Assembly (NCBI RefSeq): GCF_000026545.1
Contig: NC_011601.1
Source of the DNA: Escherichia coli O127:H6 str. E2348/69
GTDB lineage: Bacteria > Pseudomonadota > Gammaproteobacteria > Enterobacterales > Enterobacteriaceae
DNA: 64,000 nucleotides
Reading direction: 5' to 3' (one strand)
Shown: positions 30,801 to 39,800 of the stretch, in pieces
Numbering within the stretch: the stretch's first letter is position 1
Layout of the letters: the number at the start of each line of letters is the position of its first letter
Position numbers: made by a program

Positions 30801-33800
30801 CATACAGTTAAGTGTATTATCGGCGCAGAGCCCGGGCGAACCGGGCTTTGTTTTATTTCATTAACAGCAAAGACTTTCACTTCAGGTTAACGTTCTGGGG
30901 GGCGACTTTGAGCGTGTTGATAAGCTGAAATGAATTCTGGTTTAGATACTTTTACCAGGCATTTTTCGTCATAGCACGCGACCAATGTAATGCCGCCAGC
31001 GCGGAAAGTTTTTTGCCTATCTTTTTCCAGCCATTCAACCTGTACAGGAGGTCTGGTGCCAATTTTGCGTATGAGGTTCCATCAATAATGGACCATAATT
31101 TGGCTGACTGATTAACACCGAATACATTCCCCTGATTATATTTTTTAGGGATAACATTAAAAATGTCAGGTTAATCTTAATTAATTCTTTGGCTAATATT
31201 TTGTGTTGTTATTTTTTGTGGAAGGCAAGCCGCAATGGCAAAATAGGGGTGGTTGTAATAATAAAAACATGATACTAACTATATATTGATCGTTGAATTG
31301 TTGGCATGTAACACGCTACAGCGAGTAACGTTGGTAATGAAATATAATCAACATGGATAGGTGAAAATTAATTATGAGCTTTATGGCTTTTGTAACTTGT
31401 TTGACAATTGCATTTGTCGCCGGTTTTGTTGTTGCCAGAAAATTGACACTCCGAAAAGTTGCCTCATCGGTGATCATCACTAAATCGCAACCAGTCCCTT
31501 CATCTGCAACTCCCCCTGCTGCTAAGGCGTCGACAAGGAGTTATACACCGCAGAAAACCTATCGTGATTCTCGTTGGCAAGAACGAGATGAGTTATTTCA
31601 GGGAATGGTTGCCGAAGGCATTTTATTGGAAGGAAAAGAGTGGTTAATTACGCGTTGTGAGAAAATCTATTTCGATAATCTGGAGAAATGGTTTGGACAT
31701 TATTGCCATATCCATTGCCAGGTCTCTCTGGGGCGCTTGATCAACTTTCCAGAACAACCCGAGTTTAGCGAAGAAGAAAGAAAGCGTTTCTTTGCTATTT
31801 ATAATGGCATGGCAATGGATTATGTGCTGGTTTCAAAGAAGAACAATAAAATAGTCGGTGTTATTGAGCTGGATGATCCGAGTCATGAAAGGGCAGATCG
31901 CATTATTCGTGACCATTGGTTGGATACGATTATGACTCTTGCTCGGGTGCCTTTTGTACGAGCTTCTGTCACTAAATTGGAGGAAATCCCTCCGGTCTGG
32001 GATACCCGTGACAAAATTCGCCCATTAGTCGCGGCGAAAAAGAGTGAACCGTTGCATTAACCAGGTATCCCCGGTCGGGGCTTCTCATCCCCCCGGTGTA
32101 TGCAATATACGAAAAAAAGCTCGTACTTTCGTACGAGCTCTTCTTTAAATATGGCGGTGAGGGGGACCGCCTGAAATAAATCTGACTTAATCCAGGGGTG
32201 TTATATAATTTCATTATAAACAATGTATTACACTTTTTGTTGTCCGATATTATCTAATGTATTCTTAGTGAAGCGAGGGACTAATGGCATACTGGATGGC
32301 ATACCAAAGTGACGGGAATTAGCGTATGGCAGTATTGACGGATACGAAAGCAAGACATATCAAACCTGATGACAAACCATTGCCCCATGGGGGAATTACC
32401 GGACTGACCCTTCATCCTTCTTCAGTAAAGGGGCGGGGGAAATGGGTTTTTCGTTATGTAAGTCCGGTGACACAAAAAAGACGTAATGCTGGATTGGGAA
32501 CTTACCCAGAGGTCAGTATTGCTGAAGCTGCACGTACTGCCCGGATAATGCGAGAGCAACTTGCTGCAGGTGATGATCCTCTGGAGATTAAAAAGGCTGA
32601 ATCTGAGAAAGTCGTTATCCCAACATTTGCCGATGCAGCCAGGCGTGTACATGCAGAACTGTCTCCTGGATGGGAAAATCCAAAGCATGTAAGGCAGTGG
32701 TTATCGACGCTTGAGAATTACGCGTTTCCTCAACTGGGAGCAAAAACGCTGGATTCGATTACGGCTGCGGACGTGGCAGAAACACTGCGTCCAGTCTGGT
32801 TAACCTTGTCAGAAACGGCAAGCCGGGTTAAACAGCGCATTCATGTTGTTATGCAGTGGGGATGGGCGCACGGTTTTTGTGTGGCAAACCCTGTTGATGT
32901 GGTTGACCATTTGCTTCCTCAGAAGACAAGAGGACGTGATGAACACCAACCCGCAATGCCCTGGAGGCAGTTACCGCTTTTTGTGGCGACCAGTGTGTAT
33001 ACAGATGAACCTTATAATGTTACCCGGGCACTGTTATTAATGGTGATACTTACAGCAACCCGCTCGGGCGAAGCCAGGGGAATGCGCTGGGCTGAAATTG
33101 ATTTTCATAAGCGGATATGGACTATACCCGCAGAAAGAATGAAAGCCAGGATACAGCATCGAGTTCCTTTATCCCGGCAGGCCATGCACATTCTGGAAAA
33201 TATACGTGGTTTGCATGATGAACTAGTGTTTCCTTCTCCCAGAAAGCAGCAGATCCTTTCAGATATGGTGTTGACGAGTTTTCTGCGTAAAAAGAAAGCC
33301 ATCAGTGATATACCGGGGCGAGTTGCCACGGCACATGGTTTTCGCTCAACATTCAGGGACTGGTGTAGTGAACAGGGGTATTCGCGGGATCTGGCGGAAA
33401 GGGCGCTCGCTCATACGCTGAAAAATAAGGTTGAGGCGGCATATCATCGTACTGATCTACTGGAGCAGCGTGTACCGATGATGCAGGCATGGGCGGATTA
33501 TGTGATGTCTCAATTTGCTAAAAACACTAAGGAATTCGCTTAGTTTCATGGACTGGCATACTCAGAGTAGCCAAATGGTTACTGCTTTCTTTTTTGAAAA
33601 ATAAATGCAATGCCAGTTCGTAATGAAAACCTGGCATTGCACTCAGATAACGATTATTCATTATTATAACGAATAATACACTTGTGATAATTTATTTTTT
33701 GTCCGATAGTATCTATAGTCTGTTTCGGTGATACTTCAGTATGTTTTGATGATCACAAATGAAAACTCCGGCATCGAATGCAGGAATATTTAGTTTTTTT

Positions 33801-36800: not shown

Positions 36801-39800
36801 TATCAGGGGGGCATTATCGTTGCTTCGGACAGCACTGGAGGTTAAAGTAAATAGAAAAAATATAAAGTATGGCTCGTTGTTTTATTGGCTTGACCATGTA
36901 AAAGCTCATCAGGATGCATTTATTGAATCAATACCACTTATTGAACCTGTATATAAGGAGGGTGAAATACAGTATGATGCGAACAATTTTACCCTGATGC
37001 GTGTTATTAAGATGTATAATTGTATGCTTGAAAAGATCAGTACGAAACCATATATAGCTCCCCCATATATTACAGGTTTGCTTGATGACGTAGAGAAAGT
37101 ACTGGATAAGATAAATATTCTGATAGATAAAGAGTATGTTTATGATGGTAAGACACTGGCTGAAGTCATTATGGAGAACAAAGTATTATCCAGTCGCAAG
37201 CGTAAAGATACTATGATAGGGCTTTTCACAGGCAGTAAGAAATATACTTTACTGCAATGTGTTGAGAAGCTTGGTGTATTAGTTCACTACGTGAAATCAC
37301 CGGTCGATGAAATTAAAAATGTGATGATGTTGTATGGCGATAAGGCCGAAAACAGGAACAGACGCAGAATGATATATGATGCGTTAACCATTATTTGTGA
37401 GGATGATAACAGGGCTAAACACCCTGATCTGTCGTGAACTCATCTGAGTTTGTTTTGAGTCAATAATCTTTATATCCCCCTGCTAATTTTGCTAACCATT
37501 AGCAAAATTAGCAGGGGGATTATCTATGTCTGGCAAGAGAAAATTCTATAATAGTATGATTTCTTTGTTTATTTTGTTTTTCAATTAGAATGGTGTGTTT
37601 TTGTGATCTATGTCTAATTGTTTTGTATTCTTAGCGCCATCCCATTCATGGGCAGATGTACATACCGCCCCTATTAGATTGATGGGTTGCATGTTCATTG
37701 TATCTGTAAAATATGCCAGTTTTGACATTAATACATAATCTGTAATTCGGTGTAAGCTCTTGTCTGGTGAATTATGTTGCGTATTCCGCTCTATTCGATC
37801 ACGGATTGGGCCAAATCATGATCGATTCGAATGCCAAACTGCGAACGATTCAGATGCCATTTTGCATTATGTTAGTGGCTTATTTTTCTTGTTCTTTTTT
37901 ACAGGTTATGTAAGTGTGATTATCCTGATTGCTGGTCACTCATTATATACTGAGTCGACAAAACAAATGAGTATTACTGAAGTTTTTATACAGTGTTCAT
38001 CTGTCTGGTCAGGTTAGTTAGTTCCGGGAGAATCACATTTATTTCATATACCATGAATAATTAAGGTTAATTAGTATTATTAGTGGGAGTTATGGTATTG
38101 TGTGTCTGTGCCGTATTGTTTGTGTGTTTGTTGTATAACTTATCTCTTTACGTGGTAATGTCACTCCTCTTTATGCTAAGTATTCTGTATGTGTGTAATG
38201 CATATATCTCCATACACTACGCAGTGAAGCATATGGGGGAAGCTGTATGGTGAATTATGTGTGTAATGTTGTCCTGTACGTGCTTAACACTGGTTACGTA
38301 TCGGAACACTATTAGAGCGTGTTATGACTCCGTTACAGTTTATAGGTATAGGTAAATATGATCTTTTCTGTATGGAACAATCTTCTTATGGTGTGTGGGT
38401 ATGTTCTGTATACCATTATTCTTTTATGCTACTGATTAAATACCCGTGGTCTCTCTCGGCTTTACTTAATGGTTCGACAATATTAATAGCGATGTAGCCT
38501 GTAGCTAGCCGATACTGAGTTTTGTGAATGTCAGATTACTTCCTGTAAAGAATTTAGTGGTGCTTCCTGAAACTCAATTCTATGAGGTGTGTTTTTCCAT
38601 TGTAATTCGTACTGGTTCTCAGTTTAAGAGAGTCTCACTGTATTCTGAAGTATTACCTCATTACAGTAATGCGGTAATACAAAACAGTTTTATCAGGTTG
38701 TCTGTACTGCTGGTTTACTTCCTTTATTAATGCCGTGGTACGGCGTTTCTCTACTCTCAGTATTTACGTAATTCTCTCTTCCTGTGAGTTTTATAAAGTA
38801 AGGACTATAAAATGTATAATGCCAATCCCAATTACAAAATGGATTTCATGATTCTGAAAGACGTGAATGAACACATGGATGGTATGTTTCAACGTTTTTC
38901 TAAACTGTTACCTTTCAGAATTGATTTTGCTTACAGGAAAGACACGCCCAGTTTCGGTCATTCCTGTAAGCACAGTATGTGTATGGAAATATACCGTTTA
39001 CTTTGCGAAACCCAGACGATGTTGGCGGGATATTACTGGGTAATGGAATATACACCAGACAAAGGGCTTCATATTCATTTTATCGGCTATCTGGATGGGC
39101 AACGTCACAAGAACTCTTATCAGATATCCAGGCAACTGGGAGATATCTGGAGGCGGATCACGGAAGGGGGGGGTTACTTTCACCTTTGCCGGGCTAAAGA
39201 CAAATACCCGGTGCGTATCGATCACGTGATGCACTATAGTGATAAGTCCGCGGTAGACAACTTACGTTACGCCCTTAGCTATCTGGCTAAACAGGATCAG
39301 AAAGAACACGGTATTATTCTGGGCCGTAGCAGGCTTCCCGAAAAAAGCAACCGGGGCCGACCACGACATAACTGAATTACGGGGGCTTATGTCCGAACTA
39401 TCGTAAGTTATCGCGTGGATTTGTCGTTAATGCGTAGCTTTGTCCTCAGCGCAGGGGACTATGACACTTCATCTTCTGGGGTGCTACCCCGTGGGGCAGG
39501 TACAGGTAACGCATATAGTTCATAAATCTGACAGTGATGAATTAGCTGCACTGAGGGCAAACATAACTTGAAGCTTATGGGATTGAATGGCGACGTAAAC
39601 CGCAGAGCCCTGTGCAGTGCGTTTCCGTATTATCCACGGATGAGAAAGTTGCGTTATTTTGTCGACTGTTTCGCGGGCGTGATGATGTATGGGCCCTTCG
39701 ATGGGAAAGCAAAAGCAGCGCTAAATCAGGGGACTCGCGGGCCTGCGCTAACAAATGGCAGCCGGGAATAGCTGTAAACTCCGGATAAAATGTGGGGACT

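What the first reader, a model, noticed from the sequence alone, without database searches (positions are those of the whole stretch)
32326..39375. P4/CP4-57-like integrative backbone carrying a T3SS effector island
A tyrosine integrase, an AlpA-family regulator overlapping a P-loop ATPase (Walker A/B present), and a YfjJ/YagK-like gene form the typical backbone of CP4-57-type satellite elements, here linked to an OI-122-like effector module. Intact int and alpA suggest the island may still be excisable or mobilisable by a helper phage.
Basis: partly seen in the sequence, partly recalled or inferred. Interest (0 to 1): 0.4.

Follow-up and report, generated by a model that had tools for sequence, protein, structure and literature searches.

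The report
Known EPEC island IE2, SRL-type integration module
This is the integrase end of IE2, a published 61-kb genomic island of the enteropathogenic E. coli strain E2348/69 that sits in the serX tRNA gene and carries effector genes; it uses a well-studied Shigella/O157-type integration module, so the finding is correct in outline but ordinary.

Summary
The window has an intact P4-family tyrosine integrase (32326-33543). It has a DUF3987 P-loop protein (33713-35242, minus strand) whose start overlaps an AlpA-family gene (35214-35501) by 29 nt. It also has a weak YagK/YfjJ ("inovirus Gp2")-like gene (38812-39375).

The window is EPEC E2348/69, and these genes are the left end of the published island IE2 (espL*, nleB*, nleE2, lifA-like). 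The module is the SRL-PAI / O157 OI-43/48 type rather than CP4-57 itself:
- att plus int are 98% identical in DNA to the O157/O26 copies.
- The published 14-bp repeat TGGCGGTGAGGGGG lies at 32152-32165.
- The same 14 bp form the 3' end of serX 60.9 kb away, 29 kb beyond the window.

Both island ends carry tandem ATGGCATAC repeats spaced around the core as in P4 attP, so excision is plausible. It is not shown for IE2; close relatives excise at about 1e-5 to 1e-3.

The island has no P4 sid, psu, delta, alpha or cos, so it is not a phage satellite, and nothing supports mobilisation by a helper phage. Its primase-helicase gene is cut by an IS element. One conserved 611-aa all-helical protein remains unexplained. 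Already known; low interest.

The parts
32068..32151 (-). Chromosomal flank. This is the remaining half of an RtT-like repeat unit with the native serX terminator hairpin (32118-32139), next to the stop of the chromosomal DUF2726 gene (31374-32060).
   Evidence: It aligns with the repeat units downstream of serX in K-12 and in strain A38. Homology to the O104:H4 locus starts at about 32070.
32152..32165 (.). attL core TGGCGGTGAGGGGG, the reverse complement of the last 14 nt of tRNA-Ser serX/serW. The second copy is the 3' end of serX at NZ_LT827011.1 1181078-1181091, equivalent to window position 93078 and so outside the window.
   Evidence: It is unique in the window, with 0 expected matches in shuffles. 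The serX copy is seen. The same 14-bp direct repeat is published for OI-43/48 and the SRL PAI.
32153..32171 (.). Inferred core-type integrase binding sites: the perfect inverted repeat GGCGGT / ACCGCC around a 7-bp spacer GAGGGGG, the putative overlap region.
   Evidence: Read directly from the sequence. In elements with 72%-identical integrases the repeat covaries: GGCGGA-N7-TCCGC. This is an inference, not a demonstrated function.
32182..32209 (+). Promoter-like site upstream of int (CTGACT-16-TATAAT, 10 of 12 matches).
   Evidence: It is a consensus match only; the region as a whole has no more such sites than shuffled sequence.
32284..32304 (+). Inferred arm-type Int binding sites on the int-proximal arm: two ATGGCATAC copies with a 12-bp period, 118 nt from the core and 21 nt before the int ATG.
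   Evidence: The motif occurs only here in the window, and as a matching pair 56 nt from the core at the serX end (L002 31001/31013). The geometry matches the annotated P4 attP arm repeats. The pair is conserved upstream of 72%-identical integrases.
32326..33543 (+). int: P4-family tyrosine recombinase, 405 aa, apparently intact.
   Evidence: Pfam domains. It is 98.5% identical in protein to the O104:H4 copy, and the 6 differences avoid the residues taken as catalytic. att plus int are 98.0% identical in DNA to O157/O26. Its 90% cluster includes 405-aa S. flexneri integrases. It is 32% identical to P4 Int and 35% to CP4-57 IntA.
33713..35242 (-). DUF3987 P-loop protein, the counterpart of YfjI and of SRL PAI orf2. 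It is a putative helicase or replication protein.
   Evidence: Pfam 1.7e-61. PHROG 'DNA helicase' 7e-39. 23% identity to YfjI, E 1.5e-38. Walker-like motifs. SRL PAI orf2 is described as YfjI-like/DUF3987.
35214..35501 (-). AlpA-family gene, in the position of SRL PAI orf3 (rox). It is the putative recombination directionality factor.
   Evidence: Pfam Phage_AlpA 1.6e-17. PHROG 'excisionase and transcriptional regulator'. 49% identity to K-12 AlpA and 36% to P4 Vis. Rox is published as an AlpA-like factor that stimulates SRL PAI excision, and the orf order is given.
35575..37437 (+). Conserved protein of unknown function (620 aa from the first ATG; 611 aa from the RefSeq start at 35602). It is transcribed divergently from alpA and corresponds to SRL PAI orf4, listed as 'no similarity'.
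37474..37520 (.). Perfect 22-nt inverted repeat after the stop of the unknown gene, a terminator-like hairpin.
   Evidence: The spurious mir-2300 Rfam hits on both strands reflect this hairpin.
37521..38811 (.). Gene-free, AT-rich stretch of the backbone, either non-coding or a decayed gene.
   Evidence: No ORF longer than 85 aa and no RefSeq feature. It is only 83-88% identical, with indels, to the O104:H4 copy, against 95-98% for the flanking genes.
38812..39375 (+). Inovirus-Gp2 / YagK-YfjJ-like protein, 187 aa, the counterpart of SRL PAI orf5.
   Evidence: Pfam matches are below threshold. PHROG 7120, 1e-06, function unknown. RefSeq names.
39515..39844 (+). Pseudogene: the N-terminal fragment of a primase-polymerase/SF2-helicase that RefSeq names 'TOTE conflict system archaeo-eukaryotic primase'. 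It is cut off by an IS3-family remnant at 39898-40390.
   Evidence: RefSeq annotation. The full-length 786-aa gene is present in O104:H4, where it matches PrimPol and helicase models. Homology between the backbones ends at about 39857.
41032..53930 (-). OI-122-like cargo: lifA/efa1-like split into two ORFs (41858-49996 and 41032-41895), nleE2 (50203-50709), nleB pseudogene (50758-51746) and espL pseudogene (52353-53930).
   Evidence: RefSeq annotation, ORFs, and the literature on IE2.

Best explanation
The interval is the integrase-proximal backbone of IE2, a roughly 61-kb integrative island of EPEC O127:H6 strain E2348/69 inserted in the 3' end of the tRNA-Ser gene serX. Its integration module is of the type found in the Shigella SRL PAI and in the O157 islands OI-43/48.

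Shown here:
- the identity of the element;
- its exact boundaries;
- the 14-bp att core at both ends;
- the gene content;
- the near-identity of int and of both att arms to relatives published to excise.

Inferred mechanism:
- Int binds the tandem ATGGCATAC arm sites through its N-terminal arm-binding domain.
- It binds the GGCGGT/ACCGCC core sites through its catalytic domains.
- It exchanges strands within the 7-bp GAGGGGG.
- The AlpA/Rox-like protein acts as the directionality factor for excision.

The DUF3987 helicase-like protein, the Gp2/YagK-like protein and the primase-helicase may replicate the excised circle. In this strain the primase-helicase gene is destroyed by an IS element. The island has no transfer or packaging genes of its own. 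The OI-122-like effectors are cargo, joined to the backbone at an IS scar.
For: Identity of the element:
- The window is 100% identical to three E2348/69 genomes.
- IE2 is published as a 61.2-kb island carrying lifA/efa1, nleE, nleB and an espL pseudogene.

Boundaries:
- The attL core is at 32152-32165 and is unique in the window.
- serX carries the same 14 bp 60,926 bp downstream.
- An empty site, phoH-DUF2726-repeat units-serX, exists in strain A38.

Family:
- Identical 14-bp direct repeats and a P4-family int are published for OI-43/48 and the SRL PAI, with measured excision.
- att plus int are 98.0% identical in DNA to O157/O26.
- The right-arm 102 nt are 100% identical to O104:H4 and lie on tRNA-Ser. 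The right-end 428 bp are 99.5% identical to O157.
- The SRL PAI gene order at the int end (int, YfjI-like DUF3987, rox, 'no similarity', Gp2) and at the far end (YeeS, YeeT, YeeU, toxin, DUF957, DUF4942, followed in the SRL PAI by three further ORFs) matches IE2.

att architecture:
- ATGGCATAC pairs occur only at the two island ends.
- Their spacing of 56 and 118 nt from the core mirrors the annotated P4 attP spacing of 53 and 112 nt.
- The arm motif is conserved and the core inverted repeat covaries in elements with 72%-identical integrases.
Against: - Excision of IE2 itself has not been observed. All three sequenced E2348/69 variants retain it.
- No attP junction occurs in 5,426 complete E. 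coli genomes or in IMG/VR.
- I could not compare the AlpA-like protein with the Rox sequence directly. The equivalence rests on gene order and on S. flexneri members of the same 90% protein clusters for the neighbouring genes.
- The roles given to the arm and core motifs and to the replication genes are inferences from architecture.
- The YagK/YfjJ assignment is below Pfam thresholds.
Confidence: 0.9

Rival explanations
1. It is a P4-like phage satellite (or a PICI-like element) that a helper phage induces through AlpA and packages.
For: It has a P4-family int (32% identity to P4 Int), an AlpA/Vis-like gene (36% identity to P4 Vis) and a P4-like attP layout. It also carries helicase-like and primase-like genes.
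Against: - A tblastn of all 13 P4 proteins against the full 61 kb finds only int and vis. There is no sid, delta, psu, epsilon, alpha, cI, cII, gop or beta.
- There is no match to the P4 cos region.
- The element is 61 kb against 11.6 kb for P4. From general knowledge, that exceeds a P2-type head.
- The backbone proteins scanned against PHROGs gave no structural or packaging family.
- The attP junction is absent from IMG/VR viral contigs.
Confidence: 0.04
2. It is a fixed, effectively immobile remnant. int, alpA and the att sites are retained, but the island no longer excises at a meaningful rate and survives only by vertical descent.
For: - There is heavy IS decay, and nleB, espL and the primase-helicase are pseudogenes.
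- All three E2348/69 assemblies keep the island.
- No circular or tandem junction appears in any complete genome.
Against: - Int is full length with the residues taken as catalytic present, and is 98-98.5% identical to copies in islands that excise at 1e-5 to 1e-3.
- Both att arms are intact and match those of relatives.
- alpA is intact.
- Complete assemblies would not be expected to capture rare excision events.
Confidence: 0.3
3. IE2 is two unrelated islands lying in tandem at serX, an SRL-type left half and a CP4-44-like right half. On this view the int would have no cognate right-hand att site.
For: The right end carries the yeeS-yeeT-yeeU-cbtA-DUF4942 module common to many tRNA islands, and the interior is full of IS scars.
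Against: - The last 168 bp next to serX are specific to serX/serW islands, whereas only the DUF4942 gene is widely shared.
- Those 168 bp carry the same ATGGCATAC pair as the int side.
- They are 100% identical to the O104:H4 right arm.
- The SRL PAI has a similar gene order towards its far end.
- No internal copy of the att core exists in the window or in L002.
Confidence: 0.05
4. The non-integrase backbone genes (DUF3987, the 611-aa protein, Gp2-like, PrimPol-helicase) form an anti-phage or other conflict system carried by the island, not a replication module.
For: - RefSeq names the PrimPol-helicase a 'TOTE conflict system' protein.
- It matches PADLOC PrimPol (1e-143) and helicase defence models.
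- TOTE systems include TPR proteins, and the 611-aa protein is weakly TPR-like.
Against: - DUF3987, the 611-aa protein and Gp2-like have no PADLOC hit.
- In the distant relatives examined, the 611-aa family travels with alpA-DUF3987 (and yagK and int where the contig is long enough) without a PrimPol gene.
- The PrimPol gene is dispensable here, being truncated.
Confidence: 0.15

Closest known systems
[quoted passage not shown]
   Same: - The flanking 14-bp direct repeat TGGCGGTGAGGGGG at serX is the same.
- The int-end gene order is the same: int, YfjI-like DUF3987, rox/alpA, 'no similarity' ORF, Gp2-like. The far-end order YeeS...DUF957, DUF4942 is also shared, although the SRL PAI lists three further ORFs after DUF4942.
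- The integrase has the same length, 405 aa, and S. flexneri proteins fall in the same 90% clusters.
- Int-dependent excision stimulated by Rox is published.
   Different: The cargo differs. The SRL PAI carries multidrug resistance, the fec iron-uptake genes and aspartate racemase. IE2 carries OI-122-like effector genes, a type I restriction-modification system with DarTG, and many IS remnants. I could not align the SRL PAI sequence itself.
O157:H7 OI-43/OI-48 (tellurite-resistance and adherence island; called SpLE1 in strain Sakai, from my own knowledge)
   Same: - att plus int are 98.0% identical in DNA.
- The right arm next to the tRNA is 99.5% identical.
- The 14-bp direct repeats at serW/serX are the same, and site-specific excision has been measured at 1.8e-3 and 2.0e-4.
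   Different: Homology to O157 stops 26 bp before the int stop codon. The DUF3987-alpA-611-aa-Gp2 module is therefore not shared, and the cargo (ter, ure, iha) differs.
serX island of E. coli O104:H4 (2011C-3493, C227-11)
   Same: The whole 7.7-kb backbone is shared at 94-98% identity, with int 98.5% identical in protein. The attL and attR arms are the same.
   Different: O104:H4 keeps the full-length PrimPol-helicase (786 aa) and one extra RtT-like unit at attL. Its left flank is ycdU rather than DUF2726, and its cargo includes iha.
CP4-57 cryptic prophage of E. coli K-12
   Same: It has a parallel gene set, intA, alpA, yfjI (DUF3987) and yfjJ. Identities are 35%, 49% and 23% for the first three.
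   Different: - It integrates at ssrA, not serX.
- Gene order and orientation differ: alpA-yfjI-yfjJ lie on the int strand, with yfjH divergent.
- There is no BLASTP similarity between the Gp2-like protein and YfjJ, or between the 611-aa protein and YfjH.
- AlpA of CP4-57 is described as activating int transcription, whereas Rox is not.
Satellite phage P4
   Same: - The integrase family is the same (32% identity), and P4 has a Vis/AlpA-type protein (36% identity).
- attP is built the same way: a tRNA 3'-end core flanked by two pairs of tandem arm repeats with a 12-bp period at nearly the same distances.
   Different: - IE2 has no sid, psu, delta, epsilon, alpha or cos, and is 61 kb against 11.6 kb.
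- The core is inverted relative to int. In IE2 int therefore ends up beside the displaced tRNA fragment and the intact tRNA lies at the far end.
OI-122 of EHEC O157:H7 / IE6 of E2348/69
   Same: The effector set is the same: espL, nleB, nleE and efa1/lifA.
   Different: In IE2, espL and nleB are pseudogenes, NleE2 has a 56-residue internal deletion and is not translocated, and lifA-like is split into two ORFs. The module sits in a serX island. From my own knowledge, OI-122 and the LEE-linked versions are at pheV/pheU.

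Membership tests
SRL-PAI / OI-43/48-type serX/serW integrative islands | Flanked by the 14-bp direct repeat TGGCGGTGAGGGGG, the 3' end of tRNA-Ser serX/serW | tested here: met
   attL is at window 32152-32165. attR is the serX 3' end at NZ_LT827011.1 1181078. The published repeat is quoted.
SRL-PAI / OI-43/48-type serX/serW integrative islands | P4-family integrase nearly identical to that of the SRL PAI and OI-43/48 | tested here: met
   98.0% DNA identity over att plus int to O157/O26 genomes. 405-aa S. flexneri integrases are in the same 90% cluster. The SRL PAI sequence itself was not available for alignment.
SRL-PAI / OI-43/48-type serX/serW integrative islands | AlpA-like directionality factor (rox) as the third ORF, after a YfjI-like ORF | tested here: met
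   The gene order int, DUF3987, alpA matches SRL PAI orf1-orf3. Sequence identity to Rox was not tested.
SRL-PAI / OI-43/48-type serX/serW integrative islands | Int-dependent precise excision and integration | not testable with these tools
   This needs PCR or genetics. It is published for the SRL PAI and OI-43/48 but not for IE2.
CP4-57-like backbone | intA, alpA and yfjI (DUF3987) homologues together | tested here: met
   BLASTP: 35% identity (E 2e-53), 49% (E 5e-16) and 23% (E 1.5e-38).
CP4-57-like backbone | yfjJ (YagK/YfjJ family) homologue | tested here: inconclusive
   Pfam YagK_YfjJ_C scores 16.3 bits against a cut-off of 25.8, and REP_ORF2-G2P 20.2 against 27.8. There is no BLASTP hit to YfjJ. 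RefSeq nevertheless names it YagK/YfjJ or inovirus Gp2.
CP4-57-like backbone | Integration at ssrA (tmRNA) | tested here: not met
   The island is integrated at serX. There is no tmRNA or tRNA in the window, and serX is at the distal end.
P4-like phage satellite | Capsid-size and helper-exploitation genes sid, psu and delta | tested here: not met
   tblastn of P4 Sid, Delta and Psu against all 61 kb gives no hit at E<=0.01.
P4-like phage satellite | alpha primase-helicase and epsilon | tested here: not met
   There is no tblastn hit. The DUF3987 protein and the truncated PrimPol are different proteins.
P4-like phage satellite | cos packaging site of the P2/P4 type | tested here: not met
   A 200-bp query spanning the P4 cos junction gave no blastn or blastn-short match in IE2. 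The only short match from P4 was an internal 19-mer.
P4-like phage satellite | P4-family integrase and an AlpA/Vis regulator | tested here: met
   32% identity to P4 Int and 36% to P4 Vis.
OI-122-like effector module | Linked espL, nleB, nleE and efa1/lifA genes | tested here: met
   RefSeq features at window 41032-53930, and the literature on IE2. espL and nleB are pseudogenes.

The most novel reading that the evidence does not exclude
The conserved all-helical protein of about 600 aa (window 35575-37437; SRL PAI orf4) lay divergent from the alpA/rox-DUF3987 operon in every relative I looked up. It may be a dedicated sensor-regulator of TPR type, working like RRNPP/AimR-type receptors, that gates excision and replication of SRL-type islands in response to a signal such as phage infection. 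That would make these large pathogenicity islands inducible rather than passively excising elements.
Probability: 0.08. Interest if true: 0.5.

Novelty: already known. Interest (0 to 1): 0.12.

Why it matters
The finding mainly shows that the scan picked out a real, correctly delimited mobile-element backbone, but the element is already published as IE2 of EPEC E2348/69.

Practical value:
- It fixes the island's exact ends.
- It shows that the distal tRNA and att repeat lie outside the window.
- It assigns the module to the experimentally studied SRL PAI / OI-43/48 integrase family rather than to CP4-57 or a P4 satellite.

If IE2 excises as its relatives do, E2348/69 cultures would contain a small subpopulation lacking lifA-like, which has been linked to lesion formation on human mucosa. 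That is worth knowing for strain handling.

The att-site details and the uncharacterised 611-aa backbone protein are modest leads. The att details are the arm repeats, the covarying core inverted repeat, and the exclusive use of the true tRNA rather than its downstream pseudo-copies.

Tried and rejected
1. Is DUF2726 (31374-32060) part of the island? Rejected. The phoH-DUF2726-serX arrangement occurs in 1,043 of 5,426 genomes, including strain A38 with an empty site.
2. Does the integrase also use the RtT-like pseudo-copies of the serX 3' end, of which there are 2-4 downstream of serX in the three genomes examined? Rejected. A chimeric query of the island right arm joined to an RtT unit is covered at 80% or more in 0 of 5,426 genomes, and the arm always abuts tRNA-Ser. 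The single remaining half-unit at attL in E2348/69 is therefore better explained by collapse of the tandem repeats.
3. Are there tandem or circular forms? An attP chimeric query is covered at 80% or more in 0 of 5,426 genomes. The exact attP 25-mer has 0 hits in IMG/VR. This is a null result and does not argue against rare excision.
4. Is it a P4 satellite? Rejected.
5. Is there an RNA gene in the backbone or in the 1.3-kb gap? Rfam at E<=1 gave only a weak MicC-like hit on the serX terminator remnant and hairpin artefacts.
7. The papers by Iguchi et al. 2009 and Turner et al. 2004 could not be read, so IE2 and attP details come from papers that cite them.

Full report
**What is in the interval.**
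- 32326-33543 (+) encodes a 405-aa tyrosine recombinase with the three domains typical of P4-family integrases: Arm-DNA-bind_3, Phage_int_M and Phage_integrase.
- 33713-35242 (-) encodes a 509-aa DUF3987 protein (1.7e-61). PHROGs files it with DNA helicases. It has a Walker-A-like SASGSGKT and a Walker-B-like LLLLSDE.
- 35214-35519 (-), with the RefSeq start at 35501, encodes an AlpA-family protein (1.6e-17). Its stop overlaps the DUF3987 start by 29 nt.
- 38812-39375 (+) encodes a 187-aa protein that matches YagK_YfjJ_C and the inovirus G2P model only below Pfam's cut-offs. It has no BLASTP hit to K-12 YfjJ. RefSeq still names it 'inovirus-type Gp2' or 'YagK/YfjJ domain' protein.

**Where the window comes from.** The region is 100% identical to three genome records of enteropathogenic E. 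coli O127:H6 strain E2348/69. Window position equals NZ_LT827011.1 position minus 1,088,000. RefSeq annotation downstream shows, in order:
- lifA/efa1-like, split into ORFs of 2,712 and 287 aa;
- nleE;
- a frameshifted nleB;
- a frameshifted espL;
- many IS remnants.

This is the published integrative element IE2. It is listed as 61.2 kb and as containing lifA/efa1, nleE, nleB and an espL pseudogene. It was deleted and analysed in effector studies, where lifA-like contributed to lesion formation on human mucosa and NleE of IE2 was a non-translocated variant with a 56-residue deletion.

**Boundaries and att sites.** ARAGORN finds no tRNA in the window, which would have looked like a refutation. 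The island, however, runs 29 kb past the window's end. The record shows tRNA-Ser (serX) on the minus strand at 1181078-1181165, followed by ghrA.
- The last 14 nt of serX, read on the plus strand as TGGCGGTGAGGGGG, occur once in the window at 32152-32165, 160 bp upstream of int. No shuffle of the window gave a match.
- Core-to-core distance is 60,926 bp.
- To the left of the window copy lies the native serX terminator hairpin.
- To the left of the serX copy lies island DNA with its own terminator hairpin.

So int sits beside the displaced tRNA 3' fragment, and the intact tRNA is at the far end. An empty site exists in strain A38: phoH, DUF2726, four ~181-bp repeat units, serX, ghrA. DUF2726 is therefore chromosomal. 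The phoH-DUF2726 arrangement, which lacks pgaABCD-dgcT-ycdU, is found in 1,043 of 5,426 genomes.

**Which family.** A paper on O157:H7 states four things:
- OI-43 and OI-48 are flanked by perfect 14-bp repeats TGGCGGTGAGGGGG, the last 14 bp of serW and serX.
- These repeats are identical to those of the Shigella SRL PAI.
- The O157 integrases are 99% identical in DNA to the SRL PAI int but 15 bp shorter.
- The islands excise completely in 1.8e-3 and 2.0e-4 of cells.

A review adds that the SRL PAI excises from serX at about 1e-5 and that this requires int. Rox, an AlpA-like protein, stimulates that excision without activating int transcription.

IE2 fits this family.
- att plus int (window 32152-33517) are 98.0% identical to O157 and O26 genomes.
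- The IE2 integrase is 405 aa, like S. flexneri members of its 90% cluster, while other cluster members are 400 aa.
- The SRL PAI ORF table reads orf1 int, orf2 YfjI-like/DUF3987, orf3 rox, orf4 'no similarity', orf5 inovirus Gp2. Towards its far end it reads YeeS, YeeT, YeeU, toxin, DUF957, DUF4942, followed by three further ORFs.
- IE2 has the same orders at its int end and towards serX.

The full 7.7-kb backbone is present at 80% coverage or more in 100 of 5,426 E. coli genomes. These include the O104:H4 outbreak strains, where the primase-helicase is intact at 786 aa.

**att architecture (inference).**
- The 9-mer ATGGCATAC occurs exactly twice in the 64-kb window, at 32284 and 32296. It occurs exactly twice in the 40 kb holding the other island end, at L002 31001 and 31013. 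Both pairs are in the same orientation with the same 12-bp period. It does not occur in the K-12 empty locus.
- Joining the two ends gives an attP with one pair 56 nt from the core and the other 118 nt from it, the latter 21 nt before the int ATG.
- The annotated P4 attP has two pairs of tandem 12-bp arm repeats 53 and 112 nt from its core, the latter next to int.
- In elements whose integrases are 72% identical (L011, L013, L014) the ATGGCATAC pair is conserved upstream of int although the core differs.
- The IE2 attP core reads GGCGGT-GAGGGGG-ACCGCC, a perfect inverted repeat around 7 bp. The relatives read GGCGGA-N7-TCCGC, so a change on one arm is matched on the other.

I take these as arm-type sites and core-type sites around a 7-bp overlap. 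This is an inference from architecture, not a demonstrated function.

The right-end arm is cognate. The last 168 bp are shared only with other serX/serW islands: 1,120 genomes have full coverage, O157 at 99.5%. The 102 nt through the core are 100% identical to O104:H4 and lie on tRNA-Ser. About the same number of records, 1,123, carry int at 95% identity or more. I did not check that they are the same genomes.

**Tests of the satellite idea.** I fetched P4 and ran every P4 protein against the whole island, meaning the window from 32001 plus the next 29 kb.
- Only Int (32% identity) and Vis (36%) have counterparts. Sid, Delta, Psu, Epsilon, Alpha, cI, cII, Gop and Beta have none.
- The P4 cos region has no match.
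- The attP junction 25-mer is absent from IMG/VR viral contigs.
- A 186-nt attP query is never covered at 80% or more in complete E. coli genomes.

The CP4-57 comparison holds at the level of gene families: IntA 35%, AlpA 49%, YfjI 23%. It does not hold for integration site, gene order or the YfjJ match.

**Likely mechanism and state.** Int, AlpA/Rox and both att sites look intact. The six amino-acid differences from the O104:H4 integrase avoid R246, H337, R340, H363 and Y373, which I assigned as catalytic from motif patterns rather than an alignment. Int-plus-RDF excision to a 61-kb circle is therefore the best-supported behaviour, by analogy with near-identical relatives. It is not shown for IE2.

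The DUF3987 helicase-like protein, the Gp2-like protein and the PrimPol-helicase could replicate the circle. In E2348/69 the PrimPol-helicase is cut at ~39857 by an IS3 remnant, which is also where backbone homology to O104:H4 ends. No conjugation or packaging genes are annotated anywhere in the island, so horizontal spread would need outside help. The OI-122-like genes are cargo joined at IS scars.

**The one unexplained component.** The 611-aa protein has no match in Pfam, NCBIfam, PHROGs, PADLOC or PDB sequences.
- It has only 44 representatives among 1.84 billion clusters.
- In the three distant homologues I looked up (27-33% identical) it lies divergent from alpA-DUF3987. yagK and a P4-type integrase are also present where the contig is long enough.
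- An AlphaFold2 model from a 16-sequence alignment is confident (pLDDT 85.9, pTM 0.84) and all-helical.
- Foldseek finds nothing significant in PDB or BFVD.

Its constant position suggests a backbone role such as regulation, but nothing here tests that.

**Verdict.** The feature is an already published island with an already characterised type of integration module. It is not a phage satellite. Interest is low.

Noticed in passing
window 32068-32151; L005 (K-12) 13023-13653; L007 (A38) 4359-5169: serX is followed by 2-4 tandem ~181-bp 'RtT-like' units in the three genomes examined. Each unit begins with a 19-20-nt copy of the tRNA 3' end, including the 14-bp att core, plus a terminator. Copy number varies between strains, and E2348/69 keeps only half a unit at attL. 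The island's right arm is never joined to such a unit in 5,426 genomes, so the integrase appears to use only the true tRNA.
   Followed up: yes
[not shown]
   Followed up: yes
window 37474-37520: A perfect 22-nt inverted repeat with a 3-nt loop lies just after the stop of the unknown gene. It produces spurious mir-2300 Rfam hits on both strands and is probably a bidirectional terminator.
   Followed up: partly
window 37521-38811: This is a 1.3-kb AT-rich stretch with no gene. It is much less conserved against O104:H4 (83-88% identity with indels) than the flanking genes (95-98%). About 60 nt at 37810-37869 recur in many E. coli chromosomes and plasmids, sometimes beside IS transposase genes.
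   Followed up: partly
window 41032-41895 and 41858-49996: The lifA/efa1-like gene is split into two overlapping ORFs of 2,712 and 287 aa. RefSeq names the small C-terminal piece 'hydrogenase', which looks like a misannotation.
   Followed up: no
window 30613-30806 (-): A strong Rfam match to Ysr251 (188.7 bits against a gathering score of 100) lies antisense to the 3' end of phoH.
   Followed up: no
window 30812-32060: In E2348/69 and 1,043 of 5,426 E. coli genomes, phoH is followed by a low-GC DUF2726 gene instead of the pgaABCD-dgcT-ycdU block found in K-12. This is a lineage polymorphism independent of the island.
   Followed up: partly
window 62268-64000 and L002 268-9629: Inside IE2, a type I restriction-modification operon has darT-darG (a DNA ADP-ribosyltransferase toxin-antitoxin pair) inserted between hsdR and hsdS. 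An M48 peptidase gene lies next to hsdR. Only the start of this region is inside the window.
   Followed up: no
L002 31035-31066 (outside the window, next to serX): The island end next to serX carries its own hairpin plus T-run. After integration, serX is therefore terminated by island DNA, and its native terminator is left at the int end (window 32118-32139).
   Followed up: partly
window 39515-39857; L003 13424-15784: The 'TOTE conflict system' PrimPol plus SF2-helicase gene is intact in O104:H4 (786 aa; PADLOC PrimPol 1e-143). In E2348/69 it is truncated by an IS3 remnant exactly where backbone homology ends.
   Followed up: partly
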